Positions 29,994-60,742 are shown, counted from the stretch's first letter. The stretch is DNA of 64,000 bases from an uncultured Pirellulaceae bacterium (GCA_964446085.1 CAYUNP010000002.1:3266-67265), one strand, 5' to 3'. Notes: a model not told the origin generated them from the letters alone. A program made the numbers and translations.

Positions 29994-30214
29994 GGTGTTG
30001 GCAATCGTTGGTAACAGATTTGAGTTTGCATAAAATTGCGACAACGAAGATCGCAGACCCACATTGTAAGGCAAATTGAAAGAAATAAGTTAACCACTGC
30101 TGCGTCTTTCAGAACTACCAATTCCGAAAAGTGTCGCAGTTCCACCCTAGATGCATCCTGAGAGTCAAAATTCCCACATTCAACTGAAAGAAACAATCTG
30201 AGCGTCCGACTCGG

Positions 30215-31870
30215 TTACTTCGACACAGCAAGGTCCAATTCGCGGTCCATGTTTTCGTTGTCAGAAGCAACGGTACTGGAGAAAATGGAATCAAAGCCGC
30301 CGTGTCGAACTATCGACTCGGCACTTTTCCTGAACGGTGGATCAATTGCCAAACCTGATTGAGCCACAATCTCACAACAAAGTGTCTCCAATTGTGCCAG
30401 ATTGATTCCAAATCGTTTGTTGAATTGTCCGTTGGTCATTTGATCTTTAAGCCGTTGATTGGATTCCCGAATCAATGGCATTTGTGAAATGTCGACCGTT
30501 CCACCGGCCTCGACATCTTTAGTCACCTCGTGCCACTTGCGAAAGAAATCCTGCATGAAATGGTTGAGCTTGCCGAGTTTCGTCAGCCGTCTCAGGTTTC
30601 GCATGTACATCGTTTGATGGCACATCCGATCGTGCATGAATATGAAACCGGTAATCGACCAGTAAACCATATAGTCCCAAAGAATCTTCGTTGGCATCAC
30701 GGTTGGATTACCGAACATTCGATACTGATCCTGATATGCCGTCGCCGTTCCGTAGTAGAACCGCTTAAAGATTCGATCGTACGAAAACGCGCGTATGCGA
30801 ATCCCCTGCCCTGACAAATCCCGGTGAATCAGGTCAGTCAAGAAAGTGTTCGCAAAACCGATGAAGTCGCTTCCGGGAGAGTAAAACGGATCGTGAAAGA
30901 AACCGGCCTCTCCTGTGATCCCCCATCGCTGCGACGAAAACACCTGATCGCACTCGACAGCGTAATGTTTGATCGCGCGAAAATCCTGTAGCTCATCAAT
31001 GTTCTCACGAACCGCCAATGCGCATTGCGGCTCGTGCTTTTCCAACCACGCCAATGCTTTGTCAAAGGAATTGAAATCGGAAAGTGAGTGAAACTCTTCT
31101 GCCCCCACGATGCCCATACTCGTCGAACCCGAAGCCAGAGGGATCAACCAAACCCAGTACCCCTGCCCCATCAGGTGATTGGTGCTGTACCACCGCGCCG
31201 TTTTACCGGAGTGCCCTTCGTGCCACTGGTTATCGCTGGACCAATCGTCGATCTTGATATGCTTCTTGAACCGAAACCAGGCCGCATTGCCAATGTGCGG
31301 TGATTCTTTTTGCATGTTCAACTGTCGCTTGATAAACGCCCGCCTGCCACTCGCATCAACTACCCAACGGGATTCAACCGATTTGGGATTTCGATCCACC
31401 TCAAAACTAACCGTGTGCTTTTTGCCTCGATCATCAAGCTCAACGTTTTTGATTTTCGCTCGCTGAACAAAATCAATCCCTCGCTCCAGACAAAGGTCAG
31501 CCAGATAGTTTTCGAATCGACCACGATCAAGCTGATAACTGGGACACGGCGCATAACGCTTCCCGCCAAGCTCCAATCGGTCTTCGATGCGCGAGTTGTC
31601 ACCGGCAGGAAAGAAGAATCTGAGGCCGAGTTTGGGCAACTGTTCGTCGAGAATATGTTGCTTCAGCCCCAGGACTTCGCCGAAATAATAGGCTGCCACC
31701 TCGACAGTCGACTCTCCGACCTTGAATGCCGCTTCGGGAACCGGATGCTCGCGCTTTTCCAACACGGTAATCGAAGCATTGGGCAACTTCTGTCGGCACT
31801 GAAGCGCAAACGTCAGTCCCGCAAGGCCGCCTCCAAGCACTGTGATGTCGCTGGTTTGATTCGTTTGCAT
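30215..31870 (-). CDS. Flavin-dependent halogenase-like enzyme (copy A)
   Basis: GGGLAG FAD motif, [18 protein letters not shown] (Lys in the catalytic-Lys position), DASGR, YWVWLIP (WxWxIP), [17 protein letters not shown] 31870 preferred. Confidence 0.75.
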
Positions 31871-31986
31871 TTTTGATTTCCGCTTTAACGTGGTCGCAAA
31901 TTTTATGCTCAAAAGTCTGTAGTGCCGCCTTTGGGCGGAATGCATCAGCAGCGATTTCCGCTAAAGCCGACACCAGGAACCAGTTC

Positions 31987-33612
31987 CTAAATACTCAACA
32001 ATTCAAACACATGTTCCAAATGATGTTCTGTCTCTCCACGAGCCGGGATGTCAATACTGACCTCCGGCTGAGTCTGTTGAACGCGCTGCGTAATTTCGTA
32101 CATCAGCTCGCGAATCAAATCCACATTCTCCTGAAAGCGAACCTTCAACGCCGCATCGTCGAGCTCTTCACGAAGCTCCGCATTGAGCCGTGTCATGATT
32201 TCGATCTGGCTCTGATCGACAAACGCTCCATTCGCATTGACCGTCGGATCGGCGTCGTACCATTTCCGAAAGAAATCCTGCATCTTCAAATTCATGTCCC
32301 GAATCTCTTCAACGCCTTTGGACTGAGACTGAATGAAGCTGACGTCGGTTAACTTGCCACGGAAATACAACAGCGCCGGGAAGCCCCAGTAAACTGCATA
32401 GTCCCATACAAACTTGAGCGCCATGATGCGCGGGTTGCCAAAGAGTGGGTATTGATCGCGATAGGTGATCAAATTGTTTTGAAACAGAGTCAAAAACACA
32501 CTTTGCAATGTCGGTGCCAGATGTTGGATCGATCGGCCTGCCAGATCTTCTTCGATCAGTTTGCCAACCATCGTGTTGCCGATCGCGATGAAGTCACTAC
32601 CGGGTGAATAAAACGGATCCAGCAAAGCGGCCGCTTCACCGACCAGCCCCCAGCGGTCAGCTGAAAAAACCTGTTTTGCTCCACGCGAAATTTTCCTGAC
32701 CGCCAAAAAATCCTGCATCCTGTCGACGTGCGGTCGAATACTGTCAGCACACTCCGGCTCGTGCTGCTCCAACCACGCAATTGATTTTTCAAAGCTGTTG
32801 ATATCTCGCAGCGAGTGGATGCTTGGATCGGCCACGATTCCAATACTGGTCGAACCAGTCGACAGCGGAATGATCCAAACCCAATAACCTTCGCCCATCA
32901 GGTGGTTGGTACTCAGCCAACGGCGCGGAACCTTACCCGTCAACGATTGCCAGTTGGCATCGTCACACCACTTGTCGATCTGGATCCCCGCATCAATACG
33001 AAACCAGACGGCGTTGATGTCGTGATTCAGATCTTCTTCGAGATTGAGTTTTCGTTTCAAAAAGCTGGCTCGCCCACTGGCATCGACAACCCAGCGAGCG
33101 TTGATCGAATCTTCGGAACCATCTTTCAAAAACGTCAAACTGTGTCCGCGCGAATCCGGTTCCTCTGTGGCAGAAACCAGATCGACGCTACGAATTCGTG
33201 AACCCGAAATAATCGTCGCGCCCATCTCGATGGCTGTTTCGGCCAGATAGTTCTCCAACCGCCCACGATCCACCTGATAGCTGGGAGCTGAGAAAAAAGT
33301 ACTCCCGCCGACTTCTGTTCCTTCAGCCAGTGACTGGCAAGCATCCTTGAAGAAGAATCGCAATCCGAATTTCGGCAACTGCTGATCGGTCAGATGTTTT
33401 TTGAGCTGCAGCTCTTCCCCAAAATAATGCGCACCAATCTCGACGGTTGACTCACCAACTTTGTGAGTCGTTTCAGAAACCGGAAACTGACGTTTTTCAA
33501 TCACGGCAATCCGGGTCTCGGGCCGCTTCATCAGCAACTGTCTGGCCAGCGTTAGTCCAGCCAGACCGCCACCCAGTATTGCGACATCGTATTGGTTATT
33601 GTTGGAAATCAT
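31987..33612 (-). CDS. Flavin-dependent halogenase-like enzyme (copy B)
   Basis: [50 protein letters not shown]; collinear paralog of copy A. Confidence 0.75.
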   Translation of the reverse strand: MISNNNQYDVAILGGGLAGLTLARQLLMKRPETRIAVIEKRQFPVSETTHKVGESTVEIGAHYFGEELQLKKHLTDQQLPKFGLRFFFKDACQSLAEGTEVGGSTFFSAPSYQVDRGRLENYLAETAIEMGATIISGSRIRSVDLVSATEEPDSRGHSLTFLKDGSEDSINARWVVDASGRASFLKRKLNLEEDLNHDINAVWFRIDAGIQIDKWCDDANWQSLTGKVPRRWLSTNHLMGEGYWVWIIPLSTGSTSIGIVADPSIHSLRDINSFEKSIAWLEQHEPECADSIRPHVDRMQDFLAVRKISRGAKQVFSADRWGLVGEAAALLDPFYSPGSDFIAIGNTMVGKLIEEDLAGRSIQHLAPTLQSVFLTLFQNNLITYRDQYPLFGNPRIMALKFVWDYAVYWGFPALLYFRGKLTDVSFIQSQSKGVEEIRDMNLKMQDFFRKWYDADPTVNANGAFVDQSQIEIMTRLNAELREELDDAALKVRFQENVDLIRELMYEITQRVQQTQPEVSIDIPARGETEHHLEHVFELLSI

Positions 33613-33702
33613 TCTTGGTTTCGAATTTTCAAATGTAGGTTTTTGCGTGTGGGATCAATAGCGTTTCCGGTGAGGCTACCAACAAACACTTGCTCTTACT
33701 TC

Positions 33703-36700
33703 CTATGCCATTTCCTCTTTCCTGACTTCAACCTGCACAAACTCCTCGTCCTTAACATGATCATCAATCTCTGTAATCCAATAGCGTTTTTTCTGGAACG
33801 GATAAGTCGGCAAACTGAGGCGATTTCGTTCCCAATACTGGCTCAAAGCTGCAAAGCATGGATTTACACCGCCCGCATACAACTTCCCAAGGGCACTCAG
33901 CAGCGACGTTGAAGCATCCTGATTGGAACTCAGACTTTTCAAACGAGTCGCACCAAATTCAAGTGTCGCGATATCGCCCCAATCGCCCACACCAAGCTCC
34001 AACACAAAATCGCAATCCATCCCACTCAACGTCGCAACCGACTCCGGCAGCATTGGCTTGGCGCTACAATGCTCCCGCCAGTAGCTACCGCCGAGCGACT
34101 TGTGAACTGGAACGACATTCCCACCGATGCTGCAGATCAACGACATGTTGGGTGGGTAATAGTTAAACTGGTCTGCGAAAGCCTCAAACGCATTCAGAGA
34201 TTCTTCGTTCGGCGTTACGTCACCACCAGAAACAACTTTGCCGCGTTCAAGAACCAGCAACAAAGCATCGTTGAAGCAAAGACAGCCAGCCATACAAGCC
34301 GCAACATATTGTCCAACGCCAAATCCAAGCACCACATCTGGTTCAACGCCCCACTGAAGCCATATCTTTGCCAACCCTGCCTGCAACACAAACTGTTTAA
34401 CATCCGCAGGCACCGCCGATTCCGAATCAGCTCCTTCCGCACCAAGCCACGCTTGCAGTTGGAAAACTGATTGCTGAGTCTGCGACAAATGCGACATCAA
34501 CCGTTGATCAAACTCTCCGATCATTTCACGAAATACAGGCTCGGTGGCAAACAGATCGTGAGCAAAACTGTCATCAGCCGAAAGCATTCCAGCAAAAAAC
34601 CAGCCAACCCTGGGCGCTGCTTTGCAAACACCTTGAGCAATGCCTTCGAAGTGATGATGTGCTCCATTTCCTGAACCGTTTGCTCCGGCGGCACGTAGGC
34701 CATTGAGCGTCGAGGCAGAGTTCCCACCAACAAGTTCATTCAGTTTCTGTATCGCATCTTCAGGCGACTTGATTGTCAAAGCAACACGATGCTCAAAATG
34801 GCGACGACCACTGGCGGCGGTGTGACATACATCGGCCAAACGGATCGCGGAATTTTGCTCGATGAATTCACGATAATCCGACGTTAACTGCGAAAGGGCA
34901 TTTTCGTTTCGCGCACTCAACACCAACAACTCCGCCGTACGCCCTGGTTGATCGCTCGATCGAACGTCTGAACCATCGCCAGGCAAACTGGTATCCATCT
35001 TCACTGCATCGTCGGGTGCAGAACTCAACACAATATGCGCGTTGGTTCCAACCAACCCCAACGCCGTAATCCCGGCTCTTCGCTCTTCGACTTCCGGCCA
35101 AGGCGTAGGCTCGGTCACCATTTTCACCGGCATCCGCTGCCACGGAATGTGTGGACTCGGTTTGTCAAAATGAGCCTGCGGCGGAATCACGCCTTTGTGA
35201 ATCGACAACACCGTCTTGATTAAACCCGAGACACCGCCAGCGGCTTCCAGGTGACTGATATTGGCTTTCACTGAACCAACCAACAATGGCTGATCCGGCT
35301 TTCGCCCTTTCCCGTAGACACCCGACGCGGCCCCCAGCTCCATTGGATCGCCGTATTCGGTTCCAGTTCCATGGGCTTCGAGATACTGAACTTGCGACGG
35401 CGCGATTCCCGCGTCCTTCAAAGCATCACTGATCACGCGTGTCTGAGCCTTGCCGCTGGGCGACGTAATCCCGCCACTGAAACCGTTATGAACGACGGCT
35501 CCACCGCGAACGACCGCCATGATCCGATCGCCATCACGTTGGGCATCGCCAAGCCGTTTCAAAACGACGACTCCGCAACCTTCGCCGCGACCGAATCCAT
35601 TTGCGTCCGCCGAAAACGACTTGCAGCGACCCTCGGGTGAAAGCAAACCTGCCTTGGACATTAACAATGAATTGACCGGCGCAAGAATCGCGTTGACTCC
35701 GCCTGCCAATGCCATATTGCAGTTTCCATCCTGCAGGCTTCGCACTGCCTGAAACAGCGCAACCAACGAACTACTGCTGGCTGTATCAACTGCGATGCTC
35801 GGCCCTTCGAAACCAAACACATAACTGATTCGTCCTACGCCCGCACTGTGCGAAAGCCCGGCTCCCTGAAACTGTTTAACAACGTCGATGTCGTCCATCG
35901 TCGGAATGAAAGCATAGTCCTGCCCCATGATTCCCATGAACACGCCGACGTTGGAATCCGTCAGCGGGTGCGGTGAGATCCCGGCATCCTCCATCGCCCG
36001 GTAACTGTTCTCCAGCAGCATACGGTGTTGCGGGTCAATCCAGCACGCTTCCTGATCAGAGATGTTAAAGAACGCCGCATCGAAATTCGCAATGTCATCG
36101 AGAAAGCCACCTTCGCGTGTGTACATTTTGCCCGGCTCGCGATCGGCACTGTAAAACCGATCCATATCCCAGCGATCGGCAGGAATCTCACACACCGAAT
36201 CAACACCGTTGATCAGGTTATCCCAAAACTCGTCGACATTGTTTGCACCAGGAAACCGGCAGCTCATGCCGACGATTGCCACATCTTCGCGTACTCGCGC
36301 CGCTTGCTGGAGCGGCTGATCGGTGACGGCTGCTACAGCCGGAGTTCCAGCCTCTGCCTGGTTGGCTACCAACTCCAGAACAAAATCGGTGATCGCATCG
36401 ATCGTCGGATAGTCAAACAACATCGTCGGACCGACTTCGAAATCATCACCCAGCATTTGCTGAAGCTCCGTTCCGAATTCGACTGCCATCAACGAGTCCA
36501 ATCCCATTTCGATCAGTGGTCGATCCGTTTCCGGTGCATCGGGTGTCGAAAGGATTCCCTGCAACGAATCGCGAATCGTACCCAGCAGCAATTCTCTTTG
36601 AGCCGGCCCACGAAGCCGTTTCAACCGACCGACCAACTCCGAATCGCCTTTGGACACCTTTCGTTTTCCAGCAACGAGACCATCAAGCATCGCAGGCGAC

Positions 36701-41700: not shown

Positions 41701-41730
41701 GCGTTTTTAATGCGGTGGTATCGTTTTAGG

Positions 41731-41800
41731 TACAAGCCCGAAGCGCAAGCGAGTGAACTCGATATGCGGAAAATTCACTCGCTTGCGCTTCGGGCTTGTA
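41731..41800. repeat. REP-like perfect 27-bp inverted repeat
   Basis: TACAAGCCCGAAGCGCAAGCGAGTGAA (41731-57) and its exact reverse complement (41774-800), with a 16-nt spacer. Confidence 0.85.
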
Positions 41801-41802
41801 TT

Positions 41803-43833
41803 TTATGCTTCCAGTTCTTTCATCAACTCTTCCAGTGCCTGCTCTTCTGACATTGAGGCGACTTCCTGTCCCGTTGTAGAATTTGGTTGCGAAACATCGG
41901 TTAGTTTTTGGAACGCGTTGCCATGTGGTTGAAGTTGTGTCTTGCTCTTGTCGGCTGCTTTATCGGCGCTGACCGTCTTCAATAAAAAATCGGCCAGGTC
42001 ACTGAGTCGCGGATAGTCGAAAACGAGAGTCGCGGGAACTTCGTTTTCCGGTCCAAGTTCGACTTGAATCTGCGAACTCATTTCCACGACCATCAATGAA
42101 TCGAATCCCGCGTCCAGGAATCGGGTATCGGATTCAGGTCGTTCTTCTGATCCGGTGATGGACTGGACCAAGCCCTGCACGAAATTGAGTGAAACTTTTG
42201 GCTGGTCGGCAGCGAAAGCTGACTGAAGTTGTTTGCGAAGCGTAGGAGGGCGAAGTTTTGCAGAAGATACAACTGCTGAATCAGCCGACGATTCCTCACT
42301 TTGTTCAGACACGCCGAGGTTAACTCCTGCGATGTCCATCTCGCGAAGATTTGTCTTGAGGATTTTGCCGGATGGATTACGCGGCAGTTCGTCGATCACG
42401 ACAAACTCGCGAGGCACTTTGTAGTTGGCAAGATTTTCTGAAGCGAGCTTTTGCACGCTGGCATTCAATTGATCATCGGCCTCTTTCCCAGAAGCACCTG
42501 CGACCAGAAACGCGACAACTTTCTCGCCAAAGACATCATCTGGAATTCCAACAACCGCACACTGCGAAACGTCGGAGTGATCGAGCAGGACGCGTTCGAC
42601 TTCTGCCGGATAGACTTTCTGCCCACCAACGGAAATCATGTCTTTGACTCGGTCGACGATATAAAAAAAACCGGTTTCGTCGATACGGCCAATGTCTCCC
42701 GAGTGAAACCAACCGCCTTTGATTGCTGCAGAGGTGTCGTCGGGGCGATTCCAATAACCAAGCATTACGTTTGGACCACGAATCGCGATCTCGCCCAGTT
42801 CGCCTGGCGCGCAAGTCGCACCAGTTTCGGTGTCAACAATTTTCATCTCCACACAGTCAATCGGCGTCCCAATCGAACCGGGGATGAATTTATTCCGATG
42901 GTTGTAACTCGCAAACGGCGAAGTCTCAGTCAGTCCATAGCCTTCGTGGATCGGCAATCCAAACTTTTCCTGCCAACGTTGACCGACCTGAATCGGCAAT
43001 GTTGCGGCGGCCGAGAAACAATAGGTAACCGTGCTCAATTCGGCTGGCTGAAAACTGTCCTGGAATAGCTGGAACATCATCGGCACGCCGTAAAGCTGGG
43101 TGACGCTTTCTTCGGCGATCAACTGCTTGGCTTCTGATGGATCAAACTTTCGCTGCAAAACCAGCGTCGCTCCAACATTAAGAGCCGAATTCAGGAGCGC
43201 GTTTTGACCAAAGCAGTGAAACAACGGCACGGCCAACAAAATGCGATCCTTCGATTGCATGTTGCACAAATGATTGAACGCATGAACATTGGAGCGAACG
43301 TTCATGTGCGAAAGCGTCGCGCCTTTGGCGAATCCCGTTGTGCCTGATGTGTAAAGGATCAACGCGGGATCATCAGGCGCGGCGTCGATCCATTTCTCCG
43401 ACGCAGGCGACGGTTGCGCCAGCGGTTCACCATTGCAAAGGTCGCCCGGATCCGAAGACGCATAACGGTTGGCGACGCAAGCGGGCAAATCAGATTTCAG
43501 TTTGTCCAGTGTCTCGGCCAACGCGACAAAGATCCTGGCTTGGCAATCTTCGACCAGAAACGAAACTTCCGACGCCGCAAGTCGAGTGCTGATGGAAACT
43601 GCGATGGCTCCAATTCTCAGCGTCGCATAATACCAGACAACAAACGCTGGGACGTTAGGCATCATGATCGCAACTCGATCGCCTTGTGCCACGCCTGCCT
43701 CGGCTAACAATCCAGCAACCGAACGCGACATTGAATCGAGTTCTGCGAAAGTAAACCGACGGCCTTCGAATACAATCGCCTCCTTGTCAGGAAACAGTTT
43801 GGCCGTAGCGGTTAGGTGTTCGCAGATGTTCAT
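41803..43833 (-). CDS. Acyl/aryl-AMP (CoA-ligase-type) adenylation domain fused to ACP; PKS loading module
   Basis: YTSGTTGFAKG, PLFHCFG, GYGLTE, GWFHSGDIG and PSGKILK, then ACP GFDSL and an acidic C-terminal docking helix EEQALEELMKELEA. Confidence 0.9.
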   Translation of the reverse strand: MNICEHLTATAKLFPDKEAIVFEGRRFTFAELDSMSRSVAGLLAEAGVAQGDRVAIMMPNVPAFVVWYYATLRIGAIAVSISTRLAASEVSFLVEDCQARIFVALAETLDKLKSDLPACVANRYASSDPGDLCNGEPLAQPSPASEKWIDAAPDDPALILYTSGTTGFAKGATLSHMNVRSNVHAFNHLCNMQSKDRILLAVPLFHCFGQNALLNSALNVGATLVLQRKFDPSEAKQLIAEESVTQLYGVPMMFQLFQDSFQPAELSTVTYCFSAAATLPIQVGQRWQEKFGLPIHEGYGLTETSPFASYNHRNKFIPGSIGTPIDCVEMKIVDTETGATCAPGELGEIAIRGPNVMLGYWNRPDDTSAAIKGGWFHSGDIGRIDETGFFYIVDRVKDMISVGGQKVYPAEVERVLLDHSDVSQCAVVGIPDDVFGEKVVAFLVAGASGKEADDQLNASVQKLASENLANYKVPREFVVIDELPRNPSGKILKTNLREMDIAGVNLGVSEQSEESSADSAVVSSAKLRPPTLRKQLQSAFAADQPKVSLNFVQGLVQSITGSEERPESDTRFLDAGFDSLMVVEMSSQIQVELGPENEVPATLVFDYPRLSDLADFLLKTVSADKAADKSKTQLQPHGNAFQKLTDVSQPNSTTGQEVASMSEEQALEELMKELEA

Positions 43834-43905
43834 TCTTTGGCTTCCGGAAAAGCAGTCGCGCGAAGTCTCGCCAACGCAGCTTCTGATCTATCAAGTTGAA
43901 GTGGA

Positions 43906-43959
43906 GGTTTGTGGAACTGTCCTCAGACAGAATGCCGGCTAAAGCCAGGACGACAAACC
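43906..43959. repeat. Degenerate REP-like palindrome
   Basis: CCGGCTAAAGCCAGGACGACAAACC (43935-59) with a partial complementary arm GGTTTGT..GTCCT at 43906-23. Confidence 0.35.
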
Positions 43960-43978
43960 GAAGTTCTGTTTTGACGCT

Positions 43979-45643
43979 TTATTGAGTTCCTTGCAAAAAA
44001 CTGTGTTCAAACGAATCAAGAATTGGCTTGACGGCTTCAACCACCGCGCCCTCATCCCGAATATTCTGGTGCAGGGCTTCTATATCCTGTTCCAGCCAAC
44101 GATCGGAATCGTCGAACAGGAATGGCCTGTCCTGACCAGGCGAAGAATCAAGAACTTCGTAAACCGCCGAGTAAAGTGGCCGGGCCTGGTCGCCAATCAC
44201 TTTCCTTCCGTCGTAATGTCCGTAGCTGGATTTAGCCCGCATATCGAGAGCCTGAACTCCAAAGATCAACGCGATGGCCGAATATTGCTGGAACAGTTCG
44301 ACTGACTTCCAGGCCAAATTCGCCGCGCCCCAACTCAGCCCATTCACGTTTTGATTGAACTGTTCGGCGTGAGTCGGGAAATGTTCGACCAGCGGATTGG
44401 CGTTGTAGGTCAACATGGGCATAATCGAGTTGCCTGTGATCTGTAACCCCTTGAGCCCCATGTTGTAGGAAAGCGATTCGTTGCCGCGAAGCGACGGAGT
44501 CAGCCCGCCACTGAATTCGGGCGTGACCAGCGACGCAATTTGCACATCGAGATGCTTGGCCATCAGTCCGATGAACCGGCGCAGATCGTCCATCGCGATG
44601 CCAACGTACTGGCCGAGAAAATTTCCACTTTGATAAAACTGCCCCGAAGTCGGATCAATCATCGGGTTATCGGAAACAGAATTCATCTCCGTCTCGACGA
44701 CCCGATTGATGCGTGCAATACCTTCGACGATCGGGCCCATGTATTGAGGCAGGCATCGCAGCGAATAGCGATCCTGGACTTTGATCGGTTTACCGTTGGT
44801 GTGCTCTCGGCCTTCGGCAAGCCAACGTTTTGAGATCTTTGCTGTCCAGATTTGACCGGGGTGCGGTTTGTGTTGATGAACGAAATCGTCAAACGGGCTT
44901 TCATTGACCAGCAGTGCACGTAGCATCAACGACTGTGTTCCAACCGTCAGCGCCATCAAGCTGCGGGCTTCGTAGCTTGCATTGGCTGCGATCGCAGAAG
45001 AGAACGACGTCCCGTTGATGATCGCAAGACCTTCCTTGGGCTGCAATTGAAGTGGCTTCAATCCAAGTTCACGAAGCGCTTCAGCTCCATCGACAACTCG
45101 ATCGCCCATCTGGACTTTGACATGCCCGATGCCGGTGATGGCTCGCGCGATTGCTGACAATGGAACCAGATCGCCGCTGGCACCGATCGAACCGAGCTCA
45201 CGTACGACCGGAGTGGCGTCGGCCTTAAAGAATCGAACCAGGCGATCGATGATCTCCATTCGCACACCCGAGCAACCACGCAGCAAAACGTTGGCTCGCA
45301 AAATCATTGCTGCCCGGACATGACGAGAATCAATTGGCGATCCGGCTGAAGCTGCCAGAAAGGAAAGCAAGTTGTCCTGCGACGCCGCCGCGTGTGAGGA
45401 AGAAATTTCTTCGCCGGCCATTGCTCCAAAGCCAGTCGTAACGCCATAGATTTTTTCGCAGGAAGAAACCGCCTGGGCCACGGTACGTGAAGAAGCCGCG
45501 ATGCGTTCACGAAGAGACTCGTCGTCTTTGATCGAAATTGCCAATTCTTTTTTGGCGACCGCAACAATCGTCTGGATCGATTCCTTGTTCCCGGCGAGCG
45601 ACAGCTCTTTGCCAGAAACAACATTTACTTTTTCGGTCAACAT
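43979..45643 (-). CDS. pal: MIO-dependent aromatic amino acid ammonia-lyase, probably phenylalanine ammonia-lyase
   Basis: IYGVTTGFG, GSIGASGDL (MIO-forming ASG), QDRYSLRCLPQ, SDNP, GNFLGQYVG, HAEQFNQN. The selectivity site reads SFL (Phe-Leu, PAL type). Confidence 0.85.
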   Translation of the reverse strand: MLTEKVNVVSGKELSLAGNKESIQTIVAVAKKELAISIKDDESLRERIAASSRTVAQAVSSCEKIYGVTTGFGAMAGEEISSSHAAASQDNLLSFLAASAGSPIDSRHVRAAMILRANVLLRGCSGVRMEIIDRLVRFFKADATPVVRELGSIGASGDLVPLSAIARAITGIGHVKVQMGDRVVDGAEALRELGLKPLQLQPKEGLAIINGTSFSSAIAANASYEARSLMALTVGTQSLMLRALLVNESPFDDFVHQHKPHPGQIWTAKISKRWLAEGREHTNGKPIKVQDRYSLRCLPQYMGPIVEGIARINRVVETEMNSVSDNPMIDPTSGQFYQSGNFLGQYVGIAMDDLRRFIGLMAKHLDVQIASLVTPEFSGGLTPSLRGNESLSYNMGLKGLQITGNSIMPMLTYNANPLVEHFPTHAEQFNQNVNGLSWGAANLAWKSVELFQQYSAIALIFGVQALDMRAKSSYGHYDGRKVIGDQARPLYSAVYEVLDSSPGQDRPFLFDDSDRWLEQDIEALHQNIRDEGAVVEAVKPILDSFEHSFLQGTQ

Positions 45644-45728
45644 ATCTATGAGTGTAAACGATCCAGGTGCATAACTTGACCCTCAATTGTAGGCGATTTG
45701 AACCGTAATTGTAGTTGGGCGAATAACT

Positions 45729-48700
45729 TCACGCCTCCTGAATGTGACCTGGGCTCACGTTTTGGGCCGTCTCAAAGTTATCCAGCTCCCGTTTTCGATG
45801 CAGCAGCAAATACAATGCGGGCACGAAATAGAGTGCCAGAAACGTAGCCCCGCCAACGCCTCCAGCGATCGTAATCGCGAGCGGCGGCCAGAATTTTCCG
45901 CCGCCAAGTATCAGCGGAGTGAACCCAACGATCGTCGTCAATGTGGTGGCGATGATATGTCGAGTGCAGCCGGAGACCACGCCGACGAGCGATTCCGAGT
46001 CTCCGCAGCGAGCCGAATCATTGCTGCGGATGGCTGCCAGAACCACGATCGAATCGTTGATCGCCACGCCAACCAAACCCATCGTCCCGACGATCGACAT
46101 GAATCCAAATGGAAAACCGAAAACCGAAAGTGCCAACGGTCCCAGGCCAATCGACAGCCCTCCCACGACCGAAACAATAATGGCACAGCGAAACGAATGA
46201 AAGGATGCGACCAGCGTTAACAACATCAGCGCAAACAACACAATCGCATTGGCGATCAAACTGTTAACCGCGTTGGATCGCTGCTCCGTTTCTCCACCCA
46301 GTTCCAGGTCGTAACCAGCTGGCATTGCGAAATCCGCATTTGCCAATCGCTGCCTGAAATCATCCAGAACCGTCGAAGGCAAAACGCCTGCCCGAATGTA
46401 AGCTTTGACTTCGTTCGCACGTCGTCCATCAATTCGAACCACAGCACCAACATCTGACTTGAGCTCAAAGTTTGCCAGGCTGGCCACTGTCGGGTTGGCC
46501 GATGTCGTGGGAGGTCGTCCCGTGGGAGGTCCTGCACCACGCGGCGGCGGTCGACGTCCAGGCGAAGTCAACTGCAATGCCGAAAGCAGGTCCAGTTTTG
46601 AGTCACCGTCGAAATCAAGTTTGACCACTATCGGAAGTTCTTCATTGCCGTCAAAGATCTCTCCGGCAGGTGCACTTTCCAAAGTCGTGTAAAGTTGAGC
46701 TGCGATCTGGGTCTCGGTAAGCCCTGATTTTTTCGTAAGCACTTTGTCAAAATCCAGAGTCAACTTGGGTATCGTTTCTTCCAAATCCGATCGTGTATGA
46801 ATCACGTTGGGCGTTTGACTCAACAGCAGCCGCAATTGCGACCCAATCTGTTGTAGCGTTGCCAGGTCCGGCCCGACCACACGGACTTCAATCGGAGCAT
46901 CAAAAGGTGGGCCCTGCTCCAGTTGCCGAACAATCACGCGACTATCAAGTACGCTTGCGTCGATAGCTTCCTGCAGATCGTTGACGACATCGTCGGTCGC
47001 CAGGCCATCGCCAACATCCACAATCGCCTGAGCATAAAACGCCGTGCCTCTACGGCGTGGCACAACGTTGTAGTAGAACGTCGGTGCACTGCCGCCCAGG
47101 AACCAGTGCTGGCGTTTCACATTCTCGTTTTCGGAAACCACTTTTCGAATTGAATCAACCGATGAGCGGACAGCCGAAATGGAATCACGAGCTGACCGTT
47201 CGACTTCGATTTGAATCTGATCCCGATCCGATCGGGGAAAGAACTGCTGAGGCAATTTCCGGGCGACCGCAAACCCGACGATCGGCAATACGATTCCAAG
47301 CAGGATTCCAACCAGCGGGAACCGAAAAACCCAACTCAACGACCTTTCGTAGATCTCTTGCAGCACGCCGATCTTTATTCCGTAGCTGACCAGCCCACGT
47401 TGGTGTGGGTTAATATTGAGCAATGCATTGACCGGCGGAATCAGCGTCATCGCCAGCACAAAGGAAGCGCAAATCGCCAGAATGACACTCACGGCAATCG
47501 AACCTACGAACTCACCCGAGGGGCCCGGCAAAGTCGCAATCGGCAGAAATGCCAACGCGGTTGTCAACGTTGAACCAAACAATGGCATGCCGAGATGACG
47601 CACCGAACCTGTGATGGACTGCTGTGGAGATTCACCATTGACGATCCGTGTTCGAACTTCTTCCACGATCACGATCGCATTATCGATCAGCAGCCCGAGC
47701 GCCACGATCAATCCTGTCACTGACATTTGATGAATCGGAATCGAAAGGGCTCGCATGCCCGTGATCACCATCAGTGCCGACAGGGGCAAAGCCATTCCAA
47801 CCACCAGCATGCTGCGCCACCCCATCAACAGCAGAACCACCAGCGCCACTGCAGCGGTACCGACACCGAGGTTCTGCACCAGTGTCAACATTCGCTGATT
47901 GATGTGTCTCTGTTGCGAAAACAGAATCCGGGCTTCGGCTTCTTCGGAGTAATCCAGGTTGAAACTTTCGATCACTGATTCCAATCCAGTCGCCCATCGG
48001 TCAATCTGCTGGTCGTCGTTGGCGAACGCTCCAAGCACAATCGCACGTTGGCCATCGACCAGCGCCAGATTGCCAGCGGGGTCCAGTAACCGTTTCTCAA
48101 TATTGGCGATCTGCGAGAGCGCGATTGACTGCCCACTGCTACCGTGCGAAACCAGTACGTTGGCGATCCGGTTGCTGGGCAAGTCGGGTTTCTCAATATC
48201 GACAAGCGTTGCAGCTCCGTCGTTGCGCAGGTGGCCGCCGGGTTGTTTTGAGTTTTCCTGCCTGATTTGAGAAGCGATCGCAGCCAGCGAAGTATTCAAC
48301 GAAGCCAGAGTTGCAGGATCAAGTTCGGCGACGAGTTGTTCGCCCGGATCTCCAAACACATCGACTTTCCCGGTTCCCGAAATTTCAAGAATCTGATTGC
48401 GAAGTTGCTTTGCCAGGCGACGTGAAAGCGAAACGTCATCAGGGTTACTGCTGGACTTGATCGCAATGATTGCCGAATAGGCTTTCAGTGGAAACACCTC
48501 CAACTGCGGATCAAAACAGGACTCCGGCAAGCGACCACTGACGTCCGTGATGCGACTTCGCAGCAGCGTCCAAACCCGTTCAACATCGTCGACTTCATCC
48601 TTGAGTTCGACGACGATATTGGAGATACCCGTTCGGCAGTTGGATCGAACCTGCTTGATTTCAGCAACACTGGTCAGCAACTCCTCAATCGGAATCGTGA

Positions 48701-48884
48701 CCAAAGCTTCGACCTGACTGGCGTCGGCACCCGGGAAAACGGTGCTGATAACGGCAACCCGTTTGCCAAGAATGGGATCTTCAAGCCGCGGCATCACCGT
48801 CAGCGACGTCAAACCGGCAACCACAATCGTGCCGATCAAAAGCAACAGGATCCGCGGATTCTTGTACAGAAACGTTGCGATCAC
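45729..48884 (-). CDS. RND efflux permease (AcrB-like)
   Basis: [28 protein letters not shown], 12-TM pattern, 1051 aa. GTG start overlaps the MFP stop. Confidence 0.92.
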
Positions 48885-49945
48885 TCGCCGTCTCCTGAAC
48901 CCGGTTTCGTAAACCGCTCCGACACATCGACTGTTTTAACTGTTTGCCCCGGCACGATTCGGTGCGTCCCGTTTACGATTACAAATTCGCCATCGCCAAG
49001 GCTACCTTGTGCCAGCGCCCATTCGTCTTCAAGTTGCACGATCTCAAGCATCTTGCGTCGAACCTGGAAGGTACTGACATTCGATTCCGACTCAGCCACA
49101 GCCCCCTTCGTCGCCACAAGGGCCGACCAGAGTCCGGTTGATTCGCGGGCCAGAGCTGAGACCGGAATCCAGTATCCGGTATTGTCGGTAGAAGTCAGGA
49201 ACAGAATCTTCACCGTCTGACCAAACGACCAACTTGCTGGCTCAATGGGATCCGTCACCTGAAATGAAACGATCCGGCTTCCCACCGTTGACTCAAAAAG
49301 CGATTGGCTCTTAACAGCAGCCTTAACCGAATCCTCGCCAATGACGATCCACACCGTGCTTCCAACATCCAGTCCCTGAGCAATCTCCAGCGGAAGATTT
49401 GCTTCAACGAGAACAGGGAGTTCTTCAACGATCGTGACGATTGGCGATTGCGGAGAAACCAGGTCACCCACCGCCGCGTTTTGTGTCGCGATGACGCAAT
49501 CGTAGGGCGCGACCAGGTTTCCTTTTTCGAGTTCCAGTTCAACAGCTGCCAGTTGAGCCTGAAGCTGCCCAAGGCTGGCCTGATTCCCCTGAACCCCCTG
49601 TGCTTCCTCAATTGACTTTTCAACGTCGGATTTCTGTTGCTCCAGTTGCTCCAACTCGAGGGAGGCAATTTGTTCGCCAGATTTGAATTTCTGGCCGACT
49701 TCCTTGAGCAGAGATTTGATTCGCCCGGCCTGGCCAAAGCGCAGCTGGCTTTGGCGATTTGGCTTAAGGGTGCCAAAGAAGGCCGATGTCTCAATCGCGC
49801 CCTCGACGCGCGTCACCTTGATTACGTTGACGTTCACAACAGATGGGCTGCGAACCGCCAGCGCTGAGCTTTCCCGATCGCAACCGGAAACCGTCACGCT
49901 CAACAGCAGCAACAGGAGCAGTTTTGGGCTCAAGTCATTTGACAT
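48881..49945 (-). CDS. RND membrane fusion protein (periplasmic adaptor), lipoprotein
   Basis: Lipobox VTVSGC; LRFGQAGRI, LVAPYDCVI, VIVNGTHRIVPGQTV. Confidence 0.88.
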   Translation of the reverse strand: MSNDLSPKLLLLLLLSVTVSGCDRESSALAVRSPSVVNVNVIKVTRVEGAIETSAFFGTLKPNRQSQLRFGQAGRIKSLLKEVGQKFKSGEQIASLELEQLEQQKSDVEKSIEEAQGVQGNQASLGQLQAQLAAVELELEKGNLVAPYDCVIATQNAAVGDLVSPQSPIVTIVEELPVLVEANLPLEIAQGLDVGSTVWIVIGEDSVKAAVKSQSLFESTVGSRIVSFQVTDPIEPASWSFGQTVKILFLTSTDNTGYWIPVSALARESTGLWSALVATKGAVAESESNVSTFQVRRKMLEIVQLEDEWALAQGSLGDGEFVIVNGTHRIVPGQTVKTVDVSERFTKPGSGDGE

Positions 49946-50032
49946 GAAACATCAGGGCGTGAAATGTCGGTTGACCAGTTTGATTGACCCAGGAAAGAAA
50001 GTCCCAACAAACCTTTTGACGGGCGGTTTGAG

Positions 50033-60727: not shown

Positions 60728-60742
60728 GCTGTTTTGAGCGAG

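What the first reader, a model, noticed from the sequence alone, without database searches (positions are those of the whole stretch)
30215..49945. Cinnamate-primed, halogenase-containing type I PKS cluster with its own RND exporter
Seen: seven co-oriented genes (MFP, RND, PAL, ligase-ACP, PKS, two halogenase-like enzymes). Established: PAL gives trans-cinnamate; an AMP-ligase-ACP loads aryl starters (as in phenylnannolone biosynthesis); KS-AT(HAFH)-DH-KR(LDD) adds malonyl and forms an E-alkene. Inference: the intermediate is 5-phenylpenta-2,4-dienoyl-ACP, which is then halogenated and released without a thioesterase. I know of no characterised cluster with this architecture, and few planctomycete metabolites are known. 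No PPTase or flavin reductase is encoded in the window.
Basis: partly seen in the sequence, partly recalled or inferred. Interest (0 to 1): 0.85.

Follow-up and report, generated by a model that had tools for sequence, protein, structure and literature searches.

The report
Conserved planctomycete cinnamate-PKS-halogenase gene cluster

Summary
The seven co-oriented genes are present at the stated coordinates. They form a conserved unit. PAL, ligase-ACP, a 2665-aa type I PKS and two flavin-dependent halogenases keep the same order in about 46 Planctomycetota species genomes, all MAGs. An RND/MFP pump is nearly always adjacent.

The PAL reading is well supported: 625 bits to PbPAL (PDB 9EQ5), an assayed PAL, and the Phe-Leu switch in 39/39 orthologues. 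Cinnamate priming rests on PAL lying directly upstream of the ligase-ACP in 44/44 loci and on matched docking tails. It is inferred, not shown.

- KS2 has Cys→Ser with both His kept. This holds in 41/41 loci, and KS2 is almost as conserved as KS1.
- AT2 is a dead remnant.

So 5-phenylpentadienoyl-ACP is at most the first intermediate, and release without a thioesterase probably involves KS2.

Both halogenases carry all the halogenase motifs but form a new subfamily, about 20% identical to PltA, CmlS and the 3NIX protein. Such enzymes are not known to attack a bare phenyl ring, so halogenation is probably on chain carbons.

The logic parallels halogenated aryl-polyene clusters, rebuilt as a type I PKS. 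I found no characterised equivalent. It is an orphan cluster family: a new variant of a known kind, of moderate to high interest.

The parts
48881..49945 (-). Periplasmic adaptor (MFP) of an RND pump, 354 aa
   Evidence: Pfam HlyD_3. NCBIfam TIGR01730 scores 104.5 bits, above its cut-off. It overlaps the RND start by 4 bp. Present next to the cluster in most orthologous loci, sometimes divergently oriented.
45729..48884 (-). RND permease (AcrB-like), 1051 aa
   Evidence: Pfam ACR_tran, 448 bits, covering profile positions 2-1021 of 1021. Below all NCBIfam equivalog cut-offs. Orthologues are 39-78% identical.
43979..45643 (-). Phenylalanine ammonia-lyase (MIO enzyme), 554 aa
   Evidence: Lyase_aromatic 446 bits. 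Best PDB match is 9EQ5 (PbPAL), 625 bits. Phe95-Leu96 aligns with the AvPAL Phe-Leu switch, and the ASG triad is present. Phe-Leu is kept in 39/39 orthologues. Directly upstream of the ligase-ACP in 44/44 loci that have room.
41803..43833 (-). Acyl/aryl-AMP ligase fused to a carrier protein (ACP0), with a C-terminal docking tail; 676 aa
   Evidence: AMP-binding, AMP-binding_C and PP-binding. Best PDB matches are feruloyl-CoA synthetase 8WEV, FadD13 and 4CL. The ACP Ser motif (DSL) and the tail SEEEALxELMxELE are conserved.
41734..41797 (.). Perfect 24-nt-arm inverted repeat (hairpin) in the ligase-PKS intergenic spacer
   Evidence: Word depth is about 1000 in the bin 41401-42058, against about 35 in the flanks, in metagenome run X1. 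That suggests a repeated element. No T-run follows, so it is not a classical terminator.
33703..41700 (-). Type I PKS, 2665 aa: N-terminal docking helix, KS1, AT1, DH, KR, ACP1, KS2(Ser), AT0
   Evidence: The PKS ORF is about 2620-2770 aa where it is assembled intact, in 29 loci.
40336..41601 (-). KS1 (aa 34-455); active site Cys204, His-His present
   Evidence: DTACSSS, EAHGTGT and NIGHLEAA. Mean 83% identity to orthologues.
39076..40035 (-). AT1 (aa 556-875), malonyl-type
   Evidence: GHSVGQ and HAFHS, conserved in orthologues.
38131..38955 (-). DH (aa 916-1190)
   Evidence: PKS_DH_N and PS-DH. The HxxxGxxxxP motif is conserved.
36865..37410 (-). KR (aa 1431-1612), B-type
   Evidence: Pfam KR 219 bits. 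LDD motif and catalytic Tyr present.
36361..36585 (-). ACP1 (aa 1706-1780)
   Evidence: PP-binding. GLDSLMAVE is conserved.
35005..36294 (-). KS2 (aa 1803-2232): catalytic Cys replaced by Ser1975 (codon AGC at 35776-35778), both His retained
   Evidence: DTASSSS, EAHGTGT and NISHLEAA. The Ser codon is AGC or AGT in 41/41 loci, never Cys. Mean 80% identity and 39% invariant columns.
33901..34530 (-). AT0: degenerate acyltransferase remnant (aa ~2391-2600)
   Evidence: GHSxG is replaced by GxGxG in all orthologues. There is no HAFH His, and about 55 aa are missing relative to AT1. Mean 41% identity and 4% invariant columns.
31987..33612 (-). HalA, flavin-dependent halogenase, 541 aa
   Evidence: Trp_halogenase 48.8 bits. 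Motifs present and conserved: GGGLAG, Lys81 (LPKFGLRF), [14 protein letters not shown]. More than 120 clusters of homologues at 72-92% identity. In the AF2 model, the 37 best Foldseek hits are halogenases.
30215..31945 (-). HalB, second flavin-dependent halogenase, a paralogue of HalA (44% identity); the likely true start is 31870
   Evidence: Trp_halogenase 58.4 bits. The motifs are as in HalA. It follows HalA in all seven places where downstream DNA is held. Internal ATG.

Best explanation
This is a self-contained biosynthetic gene cluster for a small, halogenated, phenylalanine-derived polyketide acid.

Proposed pathway, with the basis for each step:
1. PAL deaminates L-Phe to trans-cinnamate. 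Basis: strong homology to an assayed enzyme.
2. The ligase adenylates cinnamate and loads it directly on its own carrier domain, ACP0. Basis: inferred from invariant PAL-ligase synteny.
3. The conserved C-terminal tail of the ligase-ACP docks on the conserved N-terminal helix of the PKS and hands the starter to KS1. Basis: inferred.
4. AT1 loads malonyl on ACP1. KS1 condenses, and the B-type KR and the DH give (2E,4E)-5-phenylpenta-2,4-dienoyl-S-ACP1. Basis: the domain motifs are shown; the chemistry is inferred. The single reductive loop may be used more than once, giving a longer phenyl-polyenoyl chain.
5. HalA and HalB use FADH2 from a housekeeping reductase. They act on the carrier-bound chain and put up to two halogens on nucleophilic chain carbons, either the alpha-carbon of a beta-ketoacyl intermediate or a polyene carbon. 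They do not act on the unactivated phenyl ring. Basis: inferred from halogenase chemistry and from the nearest relatives, several of which act on carrier-tethered substrates.
6. KS2, with its invariant Cys→Ser and retained His-His, cannot do a normal thio-Claisen extension, and it has no working AT or ACP of its own. I take it to be a non-elongating terminal KS that works on ACP1. It stands where a thioesterase or next module would be, and either off-loads or gates the finished chain or decarboxylates a malonyl-type thioester. This is inference, and it is the weakest step.
7. The RND/MFP pump exports the product. Basis: inferred.

Functionally the cluster repeats the logic of halogenated aryl-polyene clusters: ammonia-lyase or aryl acid, adenylating enzyme plus ACP, KS plus a Cys-less KS partner, KR, DH, halogenase, RND transporter. 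Here that logic is built as a fused type I PKS.
For: - Gene content and domains.
- Conservation as a unit. 47 loci carry an orthologue of the ligase-ACP, all Planctomycetota apart from three MAGs labelled Acidobacteriota or only 'bacterium'. PAL is directly upstream in 44/44 with room. PKS and HalA follow wherever sequence extends. HalB is present in 7/7 places with downstream DNA. Flanks differ, and there is no other recurrent gene.
- PAL. 625 bits to PbPAL (9EQ5), which was assayed as a PAL and not a TAL or HAL. Phe-Leu in 39/39 and MIO ASG conserved.
- Ligase. The best solved relatives include feruloyl-CoA synthetase and 4CL. A cinnamate-loading AMP-ligase/carrier didomain has precedent in Phn2.
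- Docking. The PKS N-terminus LSPNKQALLKIRELKQQLA and the ligase-ACP tail SEEEALxELMxELE are both conserved.
- Module 1 catalytic motifs are conserved in 29-35 orthologues.
- KS2. Ser is encoded by AGC or AGT in 41/41 loci, one nucleotide from Cys yet never Cys. His-His is kept. Mean identity is 80% against 83% for KS1, while AT0 is at 41% and lacks Ser, His and a subdomain.
- Non-elongating KS domains that decarboxylate malonyl-ACP are documented, for example BonF.
- Halogenases. All four motifs are conserved. The best sequence and fold matches are PltA, Bmp2, Mpy16, ChlB4, CmlS, CndH, CtcP, RadH and 3NIX.
- Aryl-polyene parallel. ApeH loads the ACP directly, ApeO pairs with the chain-length factor ApeC, ApeM is an RND transporter, and no PPTase is in the cluster. 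Xanthomonadins carry 0-2 Br and their clusters carry a halogenase gene.
- A planctomycete 2-chloro-3-hydroxy acid, alichondrichlorin, shows that alpha-chlorinated polyketide or fatty-acid termini occur in this phylum.
Against: - No product, transcript or enzyme assay exists. Three small metatranscriptomes from the same study showed nothing.
- Ligase specificity cannot be read from sequence. The best NCBIfam models are fatty-acid-CoA ligases, all below cut-off.
- Known Cys→Ser or Cys→Gln KS domains sit in loading modules or HMGS cassettes, not at the C-terminus of an extension module. No KS of this class is known to off-load chains.
- A decarboxylase role has no obvious substrate or purpose in this pathway.
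- The halogenases are only about 20% identical to any characterised enzyme. The loop carrying the catalytic Lys is modelled at low confidence.
- Halogenation of a polyene or beta-ketoacyl-ACP carbon by this enzyme class has few precedents.
- The aryl-polyene analogy fails on lipid-anchoring genes and on transporter type.
Confidence: 0.45

Rival explanations
1. There is one malonyl extension to 5-phenylpenta-2,4-dienoyl-ACP, followed by halogenation and spontaneous or trans-acting release. The KS2-AT0 didomain is an evolutionary relic or a purely structural or dimerisation element.
For: Only one complete module exists, there is no second ACP, and AT0 is clearly dead and poorly conserved. No thioesterase is present.
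Against: KS2 is under purifying selection almost as strong as KS1. It shows 80% mean identity and 39% invariant columns, His-His is kept, and Ser is retained in 41/41 loci even though Cys is one nucleotide away. A relic would drift as AT0 has. No halogenation site is specified.
Confidence: 0.2
2. The chain is extended further without reduction and cyclised to a second, electron-rich ring or pyrone (stilbene, diarylbutadiene or styrylpyrone type). KS2 takes part in this, and the two halogenases then halogenate that activated ring.
For: Flavin-dependent halogenases prefer phenol, resorcinol or pyrone carbons. From my own knowledge, 5-phenylpentadienoyl-ACP is the intermediate that feeds bacterial stilbene formation in Photorhabdus. 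Diarylbutene halometabolites such as the chrysophaentins are proposed to arise from a cinnamate extended four times. Two halogenases would suit a symmetrical ring.
Against: There is no product-template, cyclase, aromatase or type III/KSIII-like enzyme. KR and DH are intact and sit on the only ACP. A Ser-KS has no precedent for iterative non-reducing extension.
Confidence: 0.1
3. The ligase-ACP loads a fatty or other non-aromatic acid. The PKS and halogenases then build an alpha-halogenated lipid terminus, as in alichondrichlorin, and cinnamate from PAL is used in some other way.
For: The best NCBIfam models for the ligase are long-chain fatty-acid-CoA ligases, at 449 bits against a cut-off of 476. 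Alichondrichlorin from a planctomycete is a C26 2-chloro-3-hydroxy acid carrying an aromatic ester.
Against: PAL-ligase adjacency is invariant, often with overlapping or near-abutting ORFs. The cluster has only one ligase and no acyltransferase to attach cinnamate elsewhere. The DH is intact, whereas alichondrichlorin keeps its 3-OH. The best solved relative of the ligase is a feruloyl-CoA synthetase.
Confidence: 0.1
4. HalA and HalB are not halogenases. They are flavin monooxygenases or reductase-type enzymes that hydroxylate or otherwise modify the chain or ring.
For: The fold is shared with group A flavin monooxygenases, which appear from rank 38 in the fold search. Weak hits to geranylgeranyl reductase, LodB and QhpG models were found. 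Sequence identity to any proven halogenase is only about 20%.
Against: WxWxIP, the catalytic Lys and the FxxPxSxG-like motif are invariant in all orthologues. The 37 best fold hits and all sequence hits to solved structures are halogenases, apart from the uncharacterised 3NIX protein.
Confidence: 0.07

Closest known systems
Aryl-polyene pigment clusters (APE of E. coli/Xenorhabdus, xanthomonadin, flexirubin)
   Same: The parts list has the same logic: an aromatic acid starter (from an ammonia-lyase in flexirubin), an adenylating enzyme that loads an ACP directly, an elongating KS plus a Cys-less KS partner, KR, DH, halogenase(s) (xanthomonadin carries 0-2 Br), an RND-family transporter, and no PPTase in the cluster.
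   Different: APE systems are type II, with discrete proteins. They use hydroxylated aryl starters and carry LolA/LolB-like proteins and acyl- or glycosyltransferase genes for outer-membrane anchoring. Their transporter is ApeM, annotated only as an RND family transporter; from my own knowledge it is MMPL-type, without an adaptor protein. Here everything is fused in one modular-type cis-AT PKS, the starter is unhydroxylated cinnamate, the pump is AcrB-type with an MFP, and no anchoring genes are present. No sequence-level relationship was tested.
Phenylnannolone PKS Phn2 (Nannocystis)
   Same: An AMP-ligase/carrier didomain loads cinnamic acid as a starter for a cis-AT type I PKS that builds a phenyl-polyene.
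   Different: In Phn2 the loading didomain is part of the PKS, several modules and a thioesterase follow, and the product ends in a pyrone. Its cinnamate is proposed not to come from a PAL, and there are no halogenases. Here the ligase-ACP is a separate protein with docking tails, and there is one module plus KS(Ser)-AT0.
PbPAL (Rubinisphaera/Planctomyces brasiliensis PAL, PDB 9EQ5) and cyanobacterial AvPAL/NpPAL
   Same: They are the best solved relatives, at 625 and about 510 bits. They share the same short bacterial PAL architecture, the Phe-Leu switch and the MIO ASG triad. PbPAL and NpPAL are biochemically PALs.
   Different: NpPAL (NclD) feeds a furanolide (nostoclide) pathway, not a PKS. 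The genomic context of PbPAL was not checked here.
Variant-B / carrier-protein-dependent flavin halogenases (PltA, Bmp2, Mpy16, ChlB4, CndH, CmlS) and the uncharacterised Cytophaga protein 3NIX
   Same: They share the fold, GxGxxG, the catalytic Lys, WxWxIP and the FxxPxSxG motifs. They are also encoded next to a carrier-protein assembly line.
   Different: Identity is only about 17-22%, with E values of 1e-17 at best. There is a roughly 190-aa helical C-terminal region with no sequence match to solved structures. The likely substrate is not a pyrrole or phenol. HalA and HalB form their own tightly conserved subfamily.
Decarboxylating or non-elongating ketosynthases: KS(Ser)/KS(Gln) of loading modules (for example nystatin NysA, pimaricin PimS0; own knowledge) and KS0 of HMGS beta-branching cassettes (PksF, CurC, BonF)
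   Same: The catalytic Cys is replaced while the two His are retained. This is the signature of KS domains that decarboxylate malonyl-ACP but do not condense. BonF activity is documented; that these enzymes carry Ser is from my own knowledge.
   Different: Those domains sit at the start of a loading module with a working AT and ACP, or they are free-standing with a donor ACP and an HMG synthase. Here the domain is at the C-terminus of an extension module, is followed by a dead AT, and has no ACP or HMGS.

Membership tests
MIO-dependent phenylalanine ammonia-lyase | Aromatic amino acid lyase fold or family | tested here: met
   Pfam PF00221 scores 445.9 bits against a cut-off of 27.3. 625 bits to PbPAL 9EQ5 over residues 16-550.
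MIO-dependent phenylalanine ammonia-lyase | Ala-Ser-Gly triad that forms the MIO cofactor | tested here: met
   GSIGASGDLVPL in the window; conserved in the orthologues.
MIO-dependent phenylalanine ammonia-lyase | Phe-Leu at the selectivity switch (His-Leu in TAL, Ser-His in HAL) | tested here: met
   Phe95-Leu96 aligns with the Phe-Leu of AvPAL and PbPAL. Phe-Leu in 39/39 sequences.
MIO-dependent phenylalanine ammonia-lyase | NCBIfam equivalog score for PAL (TIGR01226) | tested here: not met
   342.9 bits against a cut-off of 519.15. The HAL models score about the same. The match covers only profile positions 29-502 of 680.
MIO-dependent phenylalanine ammonia-lyase | Deamination of L-Phe to cinnamate (lyase, not aminomutase) | not testable with these tools
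   Shown only for the homologue PbPAL.
Flavin-dependent halogenase | GxGxxG FAD-binding motif | tested here: met
   GGGLAG in HalA and HalB. Conserved, apart from one HalA orthologue with GGGLAA.
Flavin-dependent halogenase | WxWxIP motif | tested here: met
   WVWIIP and WVWLIP. Conserved in 32 HalA and 7 HalB sequences.
Flavin-dependent halogenase | Catalytic lysine on the strand after the FAD motif | tested here: inconclusive
   Lys81 (LPKFGLRF) and Lys105 (LPKLGLRF) are invariant and align with QKFGAKF of 3NIX. The AF2 model is at low confidence over residues 72-112, so the geometry is not confirmed.
Flavin-dependent halogenase | Halogenase fold rather than monooxygenase fold | tested here: met
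   The Foldseek top 37 PDB hits are halogenases or the halogenase-like 3NIX protein, with TM scores of 0.45-0.57. Monooxygenases appear from rank 38.
Flavin-dependent halogenase | Orthology to a named halogenase (CmlS equivalog NF033113) | tested here: not met
   61 and 69 bits against a cut-off of 900.
Flavin-dependent halogenase | Halide- and FADH2-dependent halogenation | not testable with these tools
cis-AT modular type I PKS extension module | KS Cys-His-His, AT GHSxG with HAFH, DH HxxxGxxxxP, KR Tyr with LDD, ACP DSL | tested here: met
   All are present in aa 34-1780 and conserved in orthologues.
cis-AT modular type I PKS extension module | A terminal release domain (TE or R), or a downstream module with an ACP | tested here: not met
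   The protein ends in KS(Ser)-AT0. No TE, R or second ACP was found. The C-terminal 65 aa are poorly conserved.
Decarboxylating KS (KS-Ser/KS-Gln loading type; HMGS-cassette KS0) | Catalytic Cys replaced, both His retained | tested here: met
   DTASSSS, EAHGTGT and NISHLEAA. Ser in 41/41 loci.
Decarboxylating KS (KS-Ser/KS-Gln loading type; HMGS-cassette KS0) | Located in a loading module with its own active AT and ACP | tested here: not met
   KS2 is C-terminal, the AT that follows is dead, and no ACP follows.
Decarboxylating KS (KS-Ser/KS-Gln loading type; HMGS-cassette KS0) | Free-standing, with a donor ACP, HMG synthase and ECH genes | tested here: not met
   None of these genes is in the cluster or recurs in the 47 loci.
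Decarboxylating KS (KS-Ser/KS-Gln loading type; HMGS-cassette KS0) | Malonyl-ACP decarboxylase activity | not testable with these tools
   It needs an in-vitro assay with malonyl-ACP1.
Aryl-polyene (APE) biosynthetic gene cluster | An aryl-acid adenylating enzyme that loads an ACP | tested here: inconclusive
   A ligase-ACP fusion is present. Its aryl substrate is inferred from PAL synteny only.
Aryl-polyene (APE) biosynthetic gene cluster | Discrete type II KS/CLF, KR and DH proteins | tested here: not met
   All are fused in one type I polypeptide.
Aryl-polyene (APE) biosynthetic gene cluster | LolA/LolB-like proteins, an acyl- or glycosyltransferase and the ApeM transporter for envelope anchoring | tested here: not met
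   Only an AcrB-type RND and an MFP are present. No other recurrent genes were found.
RND tripartite efflux pump | Full-length AcrB-family permease plus a membrane-fusion protein | tested here: met
   ACR_tran covers profile positions 2-1021 of 1021. TIGR01730 passes its cut-off.
RND tripartite efflux pump | An outer-membrane factor encoded with the pump | tested here: not met
   None is in the cluster. The only OEP-family gene in the window is at 13873-16443, about 30 kb away.

The most novel reading that the evidence does not exclude
Planctomycetes make a halogenated phenyl-polyene acid, a convergent type I PKS counterpart of the brominated xanthomonadin-type aryl polyenes. In this system two halogenases of a new subfamily halogenate chain carbons of an ACP-bound intermediate. 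An invariant Ser-for-Cys ketosynthase with a dead AT is the chain-terminating catalyst, acting as length gate, off-loader or decarboxylase. That would be a new release logic for thioesterase-less assembly lines.
Probability: 0.2. Interest if true: 0.8.

Novelty: new variant of a known kind. Interest (0 to 1): 0.6.

Why it matters
Very few planctomycete natural products are known, and almost none are linked to genes. This cluster is not a one-off. The same five-gene core, usually with its pump, occurs in dozens of mostly uncultured marine and terrestrial Pirellulales and Planctomycetales. Its halogenases are conserved at 72-92% identity across more than 120 sequence clusters, which points to a product under strong selection and probably of ecological importance.

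Working it out would give three things:
1. A gene-to-molecule link for a widespread organohalogen source.
2. The substrate scope of a new flavin-halogenase subfamily that probably acts on non-aromatic carbons.
3. The function of a naturally selected Cys→Ser ketosynthase at the end of an assembly line that lacks a thioesterase.

Tried and rejected
1. HMMER search of 1.84 billion representatives with the KS2 domain. The ranking was dominated by giant multi-KS synthases, so it says nothing about relatives of the Ser-KS.
2. Homologue search with the AT0 and C-terminal region. It returned only gene fragments of the same planctomycete family and then generic ATs. No alternative architectures were found.
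3. The apparent split of the PKS into KS-AT-DH-KR and ACP-KS2-AT0 in L086. This is a one-nucleotide frameshift in a long-read assembly, not a real split.
4. The tRNA-Ser next to the cluster as an integration site. No tRNA lies in any of 33 other loci, so this was rejected.
5. Expression evidence. Three metatranscriptomes of the same study hold none of the cluster. They are small, so the result is uninformative.
6. Promoter and terminator scan of the cluster. Counts equal chance.
7. Rfam scan of the window. It found nothing.
8. A search for an eighth conserved gene, such as a TE, PPTase, flavin reductase or hydroxylase, across 49 loci. None was found. The first attempt was confounded by shadow ORFs and was redone with masking.
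9. A link to the chrysophaentins. The alga lacks PAL, halogenase and a type III PKS, and its microbiome holds a planctomycete. This is an idea only, with no evidence.
10. A link to alichondrichlorin. Its structure does not fit an intact DH or a cinnamate starter.
11. Whether cultured Rubinisphaera brasiliensis, the source of PbPAL, carries the cluster. It did not appear among the genome hits.

Full report
OBSERVATION

Pfam and NCBIfam assign them as follows:
- MFP, 48881-49945. TIGR01730 is above its cut-off.
- AcrB-type RND permease, 45729-48884. ACR_tran scores 448 bits over the full profile.
- Aromatic amino acid lyase, 43979-45643.
- AMP-ligase fused to a carrier domain, 41803-43833.
- A 2665-aa type I PKS, 33703-41700.
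- Two Trp_halogenase-family flavoproteins, 31987-33612 (HalA) and 30215-31945 (HalB).

Public gene calls on the source contig match for MFP, RND, PAL, ligase-ACP and the PKS start. That locus ends inside the PKS, so it does not cover the halogenases. The flanking genes are unrelated: an alginate lyase, glutamate synthase and hypothetical proteins. None of the 25 larger flanking ORFs I scanned matched a PPTase or flavin reductase family. The window is part of a 66.5-kb marine metagenome scaffold.

The PKS translation and the Pfam hits, which show two KS stretches and two AT stretches, reveal the order KS1-AT1-DH-KR-ACP1-KS2-AT2.

Module 1 is canonical:
- KS1: DTACSSS, HGTGT and NIGH.
- AT1: GHSVGQ and HAFHS, the malonyl type.
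- DH: HxxxGxxxxP.
- KR: LDD plus the catalytic Tyr, the B type.
- ACP1: DSL.

KS2 reads DTASSSS. The catalytic Cys is Ser1975 (codon AGC at 35776-35778), while both catalytic His are kept (EAHGTGT, NISHLEAA).

AT2 reads GFGVGQ instead of GHSxGQ. It has no His at the HAFH position and is about 55 residues shorter between these landmarks than AT1. It is a dead remnant, which I call AT0. Nothing follows it: no ACP, TE or R domain.

CONSERVATION

A scan of one genome per species (GTDB) with an alignment of the ligase-ACP returned 47 loci with a full-length orthologue at 49-73% identity. All but three are Planctomycetota MAGs: Pirellulaceae, Planctomycetaceae, Lacipirellulaceae, Bythopirellula, Fuerstiella and Mariniblastus. 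The exceptions are one MAG labelled Acidobacteriota and two labelled only 'bacterium'. The next hits drop to 35% identity or less and are generic ligases.

tblastn of the window's proteins against these loci gave the following:
- PAL lies directly upstream of the ligase-ACP in 44 of 44 loci with room for it.
- The PKS and HalA follow wherever sequence extends.
- The RND/MFP pair is adjacent in most loci. It is divergently oriented in about eleven and absent from the held flank in two.

HalB follows HalA in all seven places where downstream DNA is held. Beyond HalB the neighbours differ in every genome. After the seven genes were masked, no other ORF family recurred in more than three loci. The evolutionary unit is therefore exactly these genes, with PAL/ligase-ACP/PKS/HalA/HalB as the core.

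HalA is strikingly conserved. The best 120 database clusters are all 72-92% identical over the full length. No cultured strain appeared among the hits.

SELECTION ON THE ODD DIDOMAIN

In an alignment of 35 orthologous PKSs, every catalytic motif of module 1 is kept. KS2 is DTASSSS or D[ST]ASSSS in all of them, with both His. The AT2 motif is always GxGxG, with a variable residue at the His position.

| Domain | Mean identity to window | Invariant columns |
|---|---|---|
| KS1 | 83% | 49% |
| KS2 | 80% | 39% |
| AT0 | 41% | 4% |

(All values.)

At the DNA level the Ser codon is AGC (33 loci) or AGT (8 loci) in 41 of 41 loci. It varies synonymously and lies one nucleotide from Cys, yet it is never Cys. 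KS2 is therefore a selected, presumably catalytic, Ser-KS, and AT0 is scaffolding. An apparent split of the PKS in L086 is a one-base frameshift.

THE LYASE

The best solved relative is 9EQ5, at 625 bits over residues 16-550. This is PbPAL from Planctomyces brasiliensis, which was shown to be a PAL rather than a TAL or HAL. AvPAL and NpPAL follow at about 510 bits. The selectivity switch is Phe95-Leu96, aligned to the Phe-Leu of AvPAL and present in 39 of 39 sequences. The MIO ASG triad and the catalytic Tyr loop are conserved. The plant-type NCBIfam PAL model is not passed. I accept PAL with high confidence.

THE LIGASE-ACP

It belongs to the 4CL/FadD13-like ANL group. The best solved relatives are a feruloyl-CoA synthetase, FadD13, FadD5, oxalate and malonate ligases, and 4CL. 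The best NCBIfam models are fatty-acid ligases, all below cut-off. Specificity cannot be read from this.

Three observations support cinnamate as the substrate:
- The PAL-ligase adjacency is invariant.
- A cinnamate-loading AMP-ligase/carrier didomain is documented in phenylnannolone Phn2.
- There is a matched pair of conserved termini. The ligase-ACP ends in ...SEEEALxELMxELE and the PKS begins ...LSPNKQALLKIRELKQQLA. These look like the docking helices of cyanobacterial and myxobacterial assembly lines, a resemblance I draw from my own knowledge.

Together these place ACP0 immediately before KS1.

THE HALOGENASES

Both proteins have GGGLAG, an invariant Lys (LPKFGLRF in HalA, LPKLGLRF in HalB) that aligns with the Lys strand of 3NIX, WxWxIP, and FYSPGSDF. 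They are 44% identical to each other.

Sequence matches to solved structures are all flavin halogenases plus the uncharacterised 3NIX protein: PltA, Bmp2, Mpy16, ChlB4, FasV, CmlS, CtcP, CndH, MalA and RadH. E values are 1e-17 at best.

An AlphaFold model of HalA has a mean pLDDT of 77.7, and the Lys loop is at low confidence. Its 37 best Foldseek hits are halogenases, with TM scores of 0.45-0.57. Monooxygenases appear only below them.

They are therefore halogenases by every sequence criterion I could test, but they form a new subfamily. Several of the nearest relatives (PltA, Bmp2, Mpy16, ChlB4, CndH) act on carrier-tethered substrates; this is from my own knowledge.

Flavin halogenases deliver an electrophilic halogen. 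A PAL-derived phenyl ring has no activating group and no hydroxylase is encoded, so ring halogenation is chemically implausible. The nucleophilic positions available are the alpha-carbon of a beta-ketoacyl-ACP and carbons of the conjugated chain.

Two precedents make this reasonable. Xanthomonadins carry up to two bromines and their clusters carry a halogenase gene; from my own knowledge, one Br of xanthomonadin I is on the polyene carbon next to the ring. A planctomycete metabolite, alichondrichlorin, ends in a 2-chloro-3-hydroxy-carboxylate. That is the pattern expected if a beta-ketoacyl thioester is chlorinated and then reduced.

MECHANISM I COMMIT TO (confidence about 0.45 overall)

1. 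Phe is converted to cinnamate by PAL (about 0.85).
2. Cinnamoyl-AMP is formed and loaded as cinnamoyl-S-ACP0 (about 0.65).
3. ACP0 docks on the PKS and hands the starter to KS1.
4. One malonyl extension with ketoreduction and dehydration gives (2E,4E)-5-phenylpentadienoyl-S-ACP1.
5. The single reductive loop may be reused to lengthen the polyene.
6. HalA and HalB install up to two halogens on chain carbons while the chain is carrier-bound.
7. KS2(Ser) acts as a non-elongating terminal KS on ACP1, in place of a thioesterase.
8. The RND/MFP pump exports the product.

For KS2, the motif pattern (Cys lost, His-His kept) is that of decarboxylating KS domains. These are the KS(Gln) and KS(Ser) loading domains and the KS0 of HMGS cassettes, such as BonF. 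That these carry Ser is from my own knowledge. The context of KS2 differs from all of them.

I split my belief on the role of KS2 roughly as follows:

| Role of KS2 | Belief |
|---|---|
| Off-loading or length-gating | 0.35 |
| Decarboxylase of a malonyl-type thioester | 0.35 |
| True second elongation using ACP1 | 0.15 |
| Structural only | 0.15 |

COMPARISON WITH KNOWN SYSTEMS

The parts list maps one-to-one onto aryl-polyene clusters: an adenylating enzyme that loads an ACP directly, the KS ApeO with the Cys-less partner ApeC, KR, DH, an RND transporter, and no PPTase in the cluster. In xanthomonadin clusters a halogenase is added.

The cluster fails the defining features of that family, however. 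It is type I and fused. It has no LolA/LolB-like or anchoring genes. Its pump is AcrB-type with an adaptor. Its starter is unhydroxylated. It works like an aryl-polyene pathway but is not a member of that family.

It shares cinnamate loading with phenylnannolone, but not the module count, the thioesterase, the pyrone or the lack of halogenases. The cyanobacterial PAL relatives feed a furanolide pathway, not a PKS.

Ten full-text searches found no description of this cluster. MIBiG and antiSMASH were not available.

VERDICT

PAL, cinnamate priming and module 1 chemistry are plausible. The single-extension, thioesterase-free product ignores a conserved Ser-KS, and the halogenation site must be on the chain.
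- This is an orphan cluster family that is widespread in uncultured planctomycetes: a new variant of a known kind.
- Interest is 0.6.

Noticed in passing
window 41734-41797: A perfect inverted repeat with 24-nt arms and a 16-nt loop lies in the 102-bp spacer between the ligase-ACP and the PKS. In metagenome run X1, word depth in the bin 41401-42058 is about 1000, against about 35 for the rest of the cluster, and many loose ends occur at 41769-41804. This suggests a short palindromic element repeated many times in the genome or community. No T-run follows it.
   Followed up: partly
window 50032-50112 (-): A tRNA-Ser(CGA) gene lies 87 bp upstream of the MFP start. ARAGORN finds it, but the Rfam gathering-threshold scan of the window reported no match at all. 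No tRNA is found in 33 orthologous loci, so it is not a conserved integration site.
   Followed up: yes
window 59576-61231 (+): An ORF matching the AEP-TOTE primase domain of the 'TOTE conflict system' (PF22548, E 4.6e-9) is followed immediately by a short ORF with weak M41/M50-like peptidase matches. This may be a defence-system fragment.
   Followed up: no
window 13873-16443 (+): An 856-aa protein with two outer-membrane efflux protein (OEP/TolC-like) repeats. It is the only candidate outer-membrane factor in the window and lies about 30 kb from the RND/MFP pair.
   Followed up: no
window 28785-30074 (-): An alginate lyase (PF05426, 264 bits) lies directly downstream of HalB. This fits a marine, alga-associated lifestyle. 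It is not conserved next to the cluster elsewhere.
   Followed up: partly
window 6126-11058 (-): Two adjacent signalling genes: a protein with GGDEF, receiver and HD-GYP-like (HD_5) domains, and a PAS-containing hybrid histidine kinase.
   Followed up: no
L086 7050-7300: The PKS in this long-read MAG is called as two proteins, of 1716 and 944 aa. The cause is a single-base frameshift in the KR-ACP linker. It is an assembly artefact, not a natural split.
   Followed up: yes
window 30215-31945 (-): The longest HalB ORF starts at 31945 and gives 576 aa. An in-frame ATG at 31870 gives 551 aa, which matches the 541-552 aa of orthologues. The 25-residue basic N-terminal extension is probably not translated.
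   Followed up: partly
literature (PMC5651878; PMC10366177): PbPAL, the closest characterised relative of the window's PAL, is unusually active on m-methoxycinnamate. This could hint that the natural substrate is a meta-substituted Phe. Separately, the chrysophaentin-producing alga lacks PAL, halogenase and a type III PKS, while its microbiome includes a planctomycete. Both are leads only.
   Followed up: no
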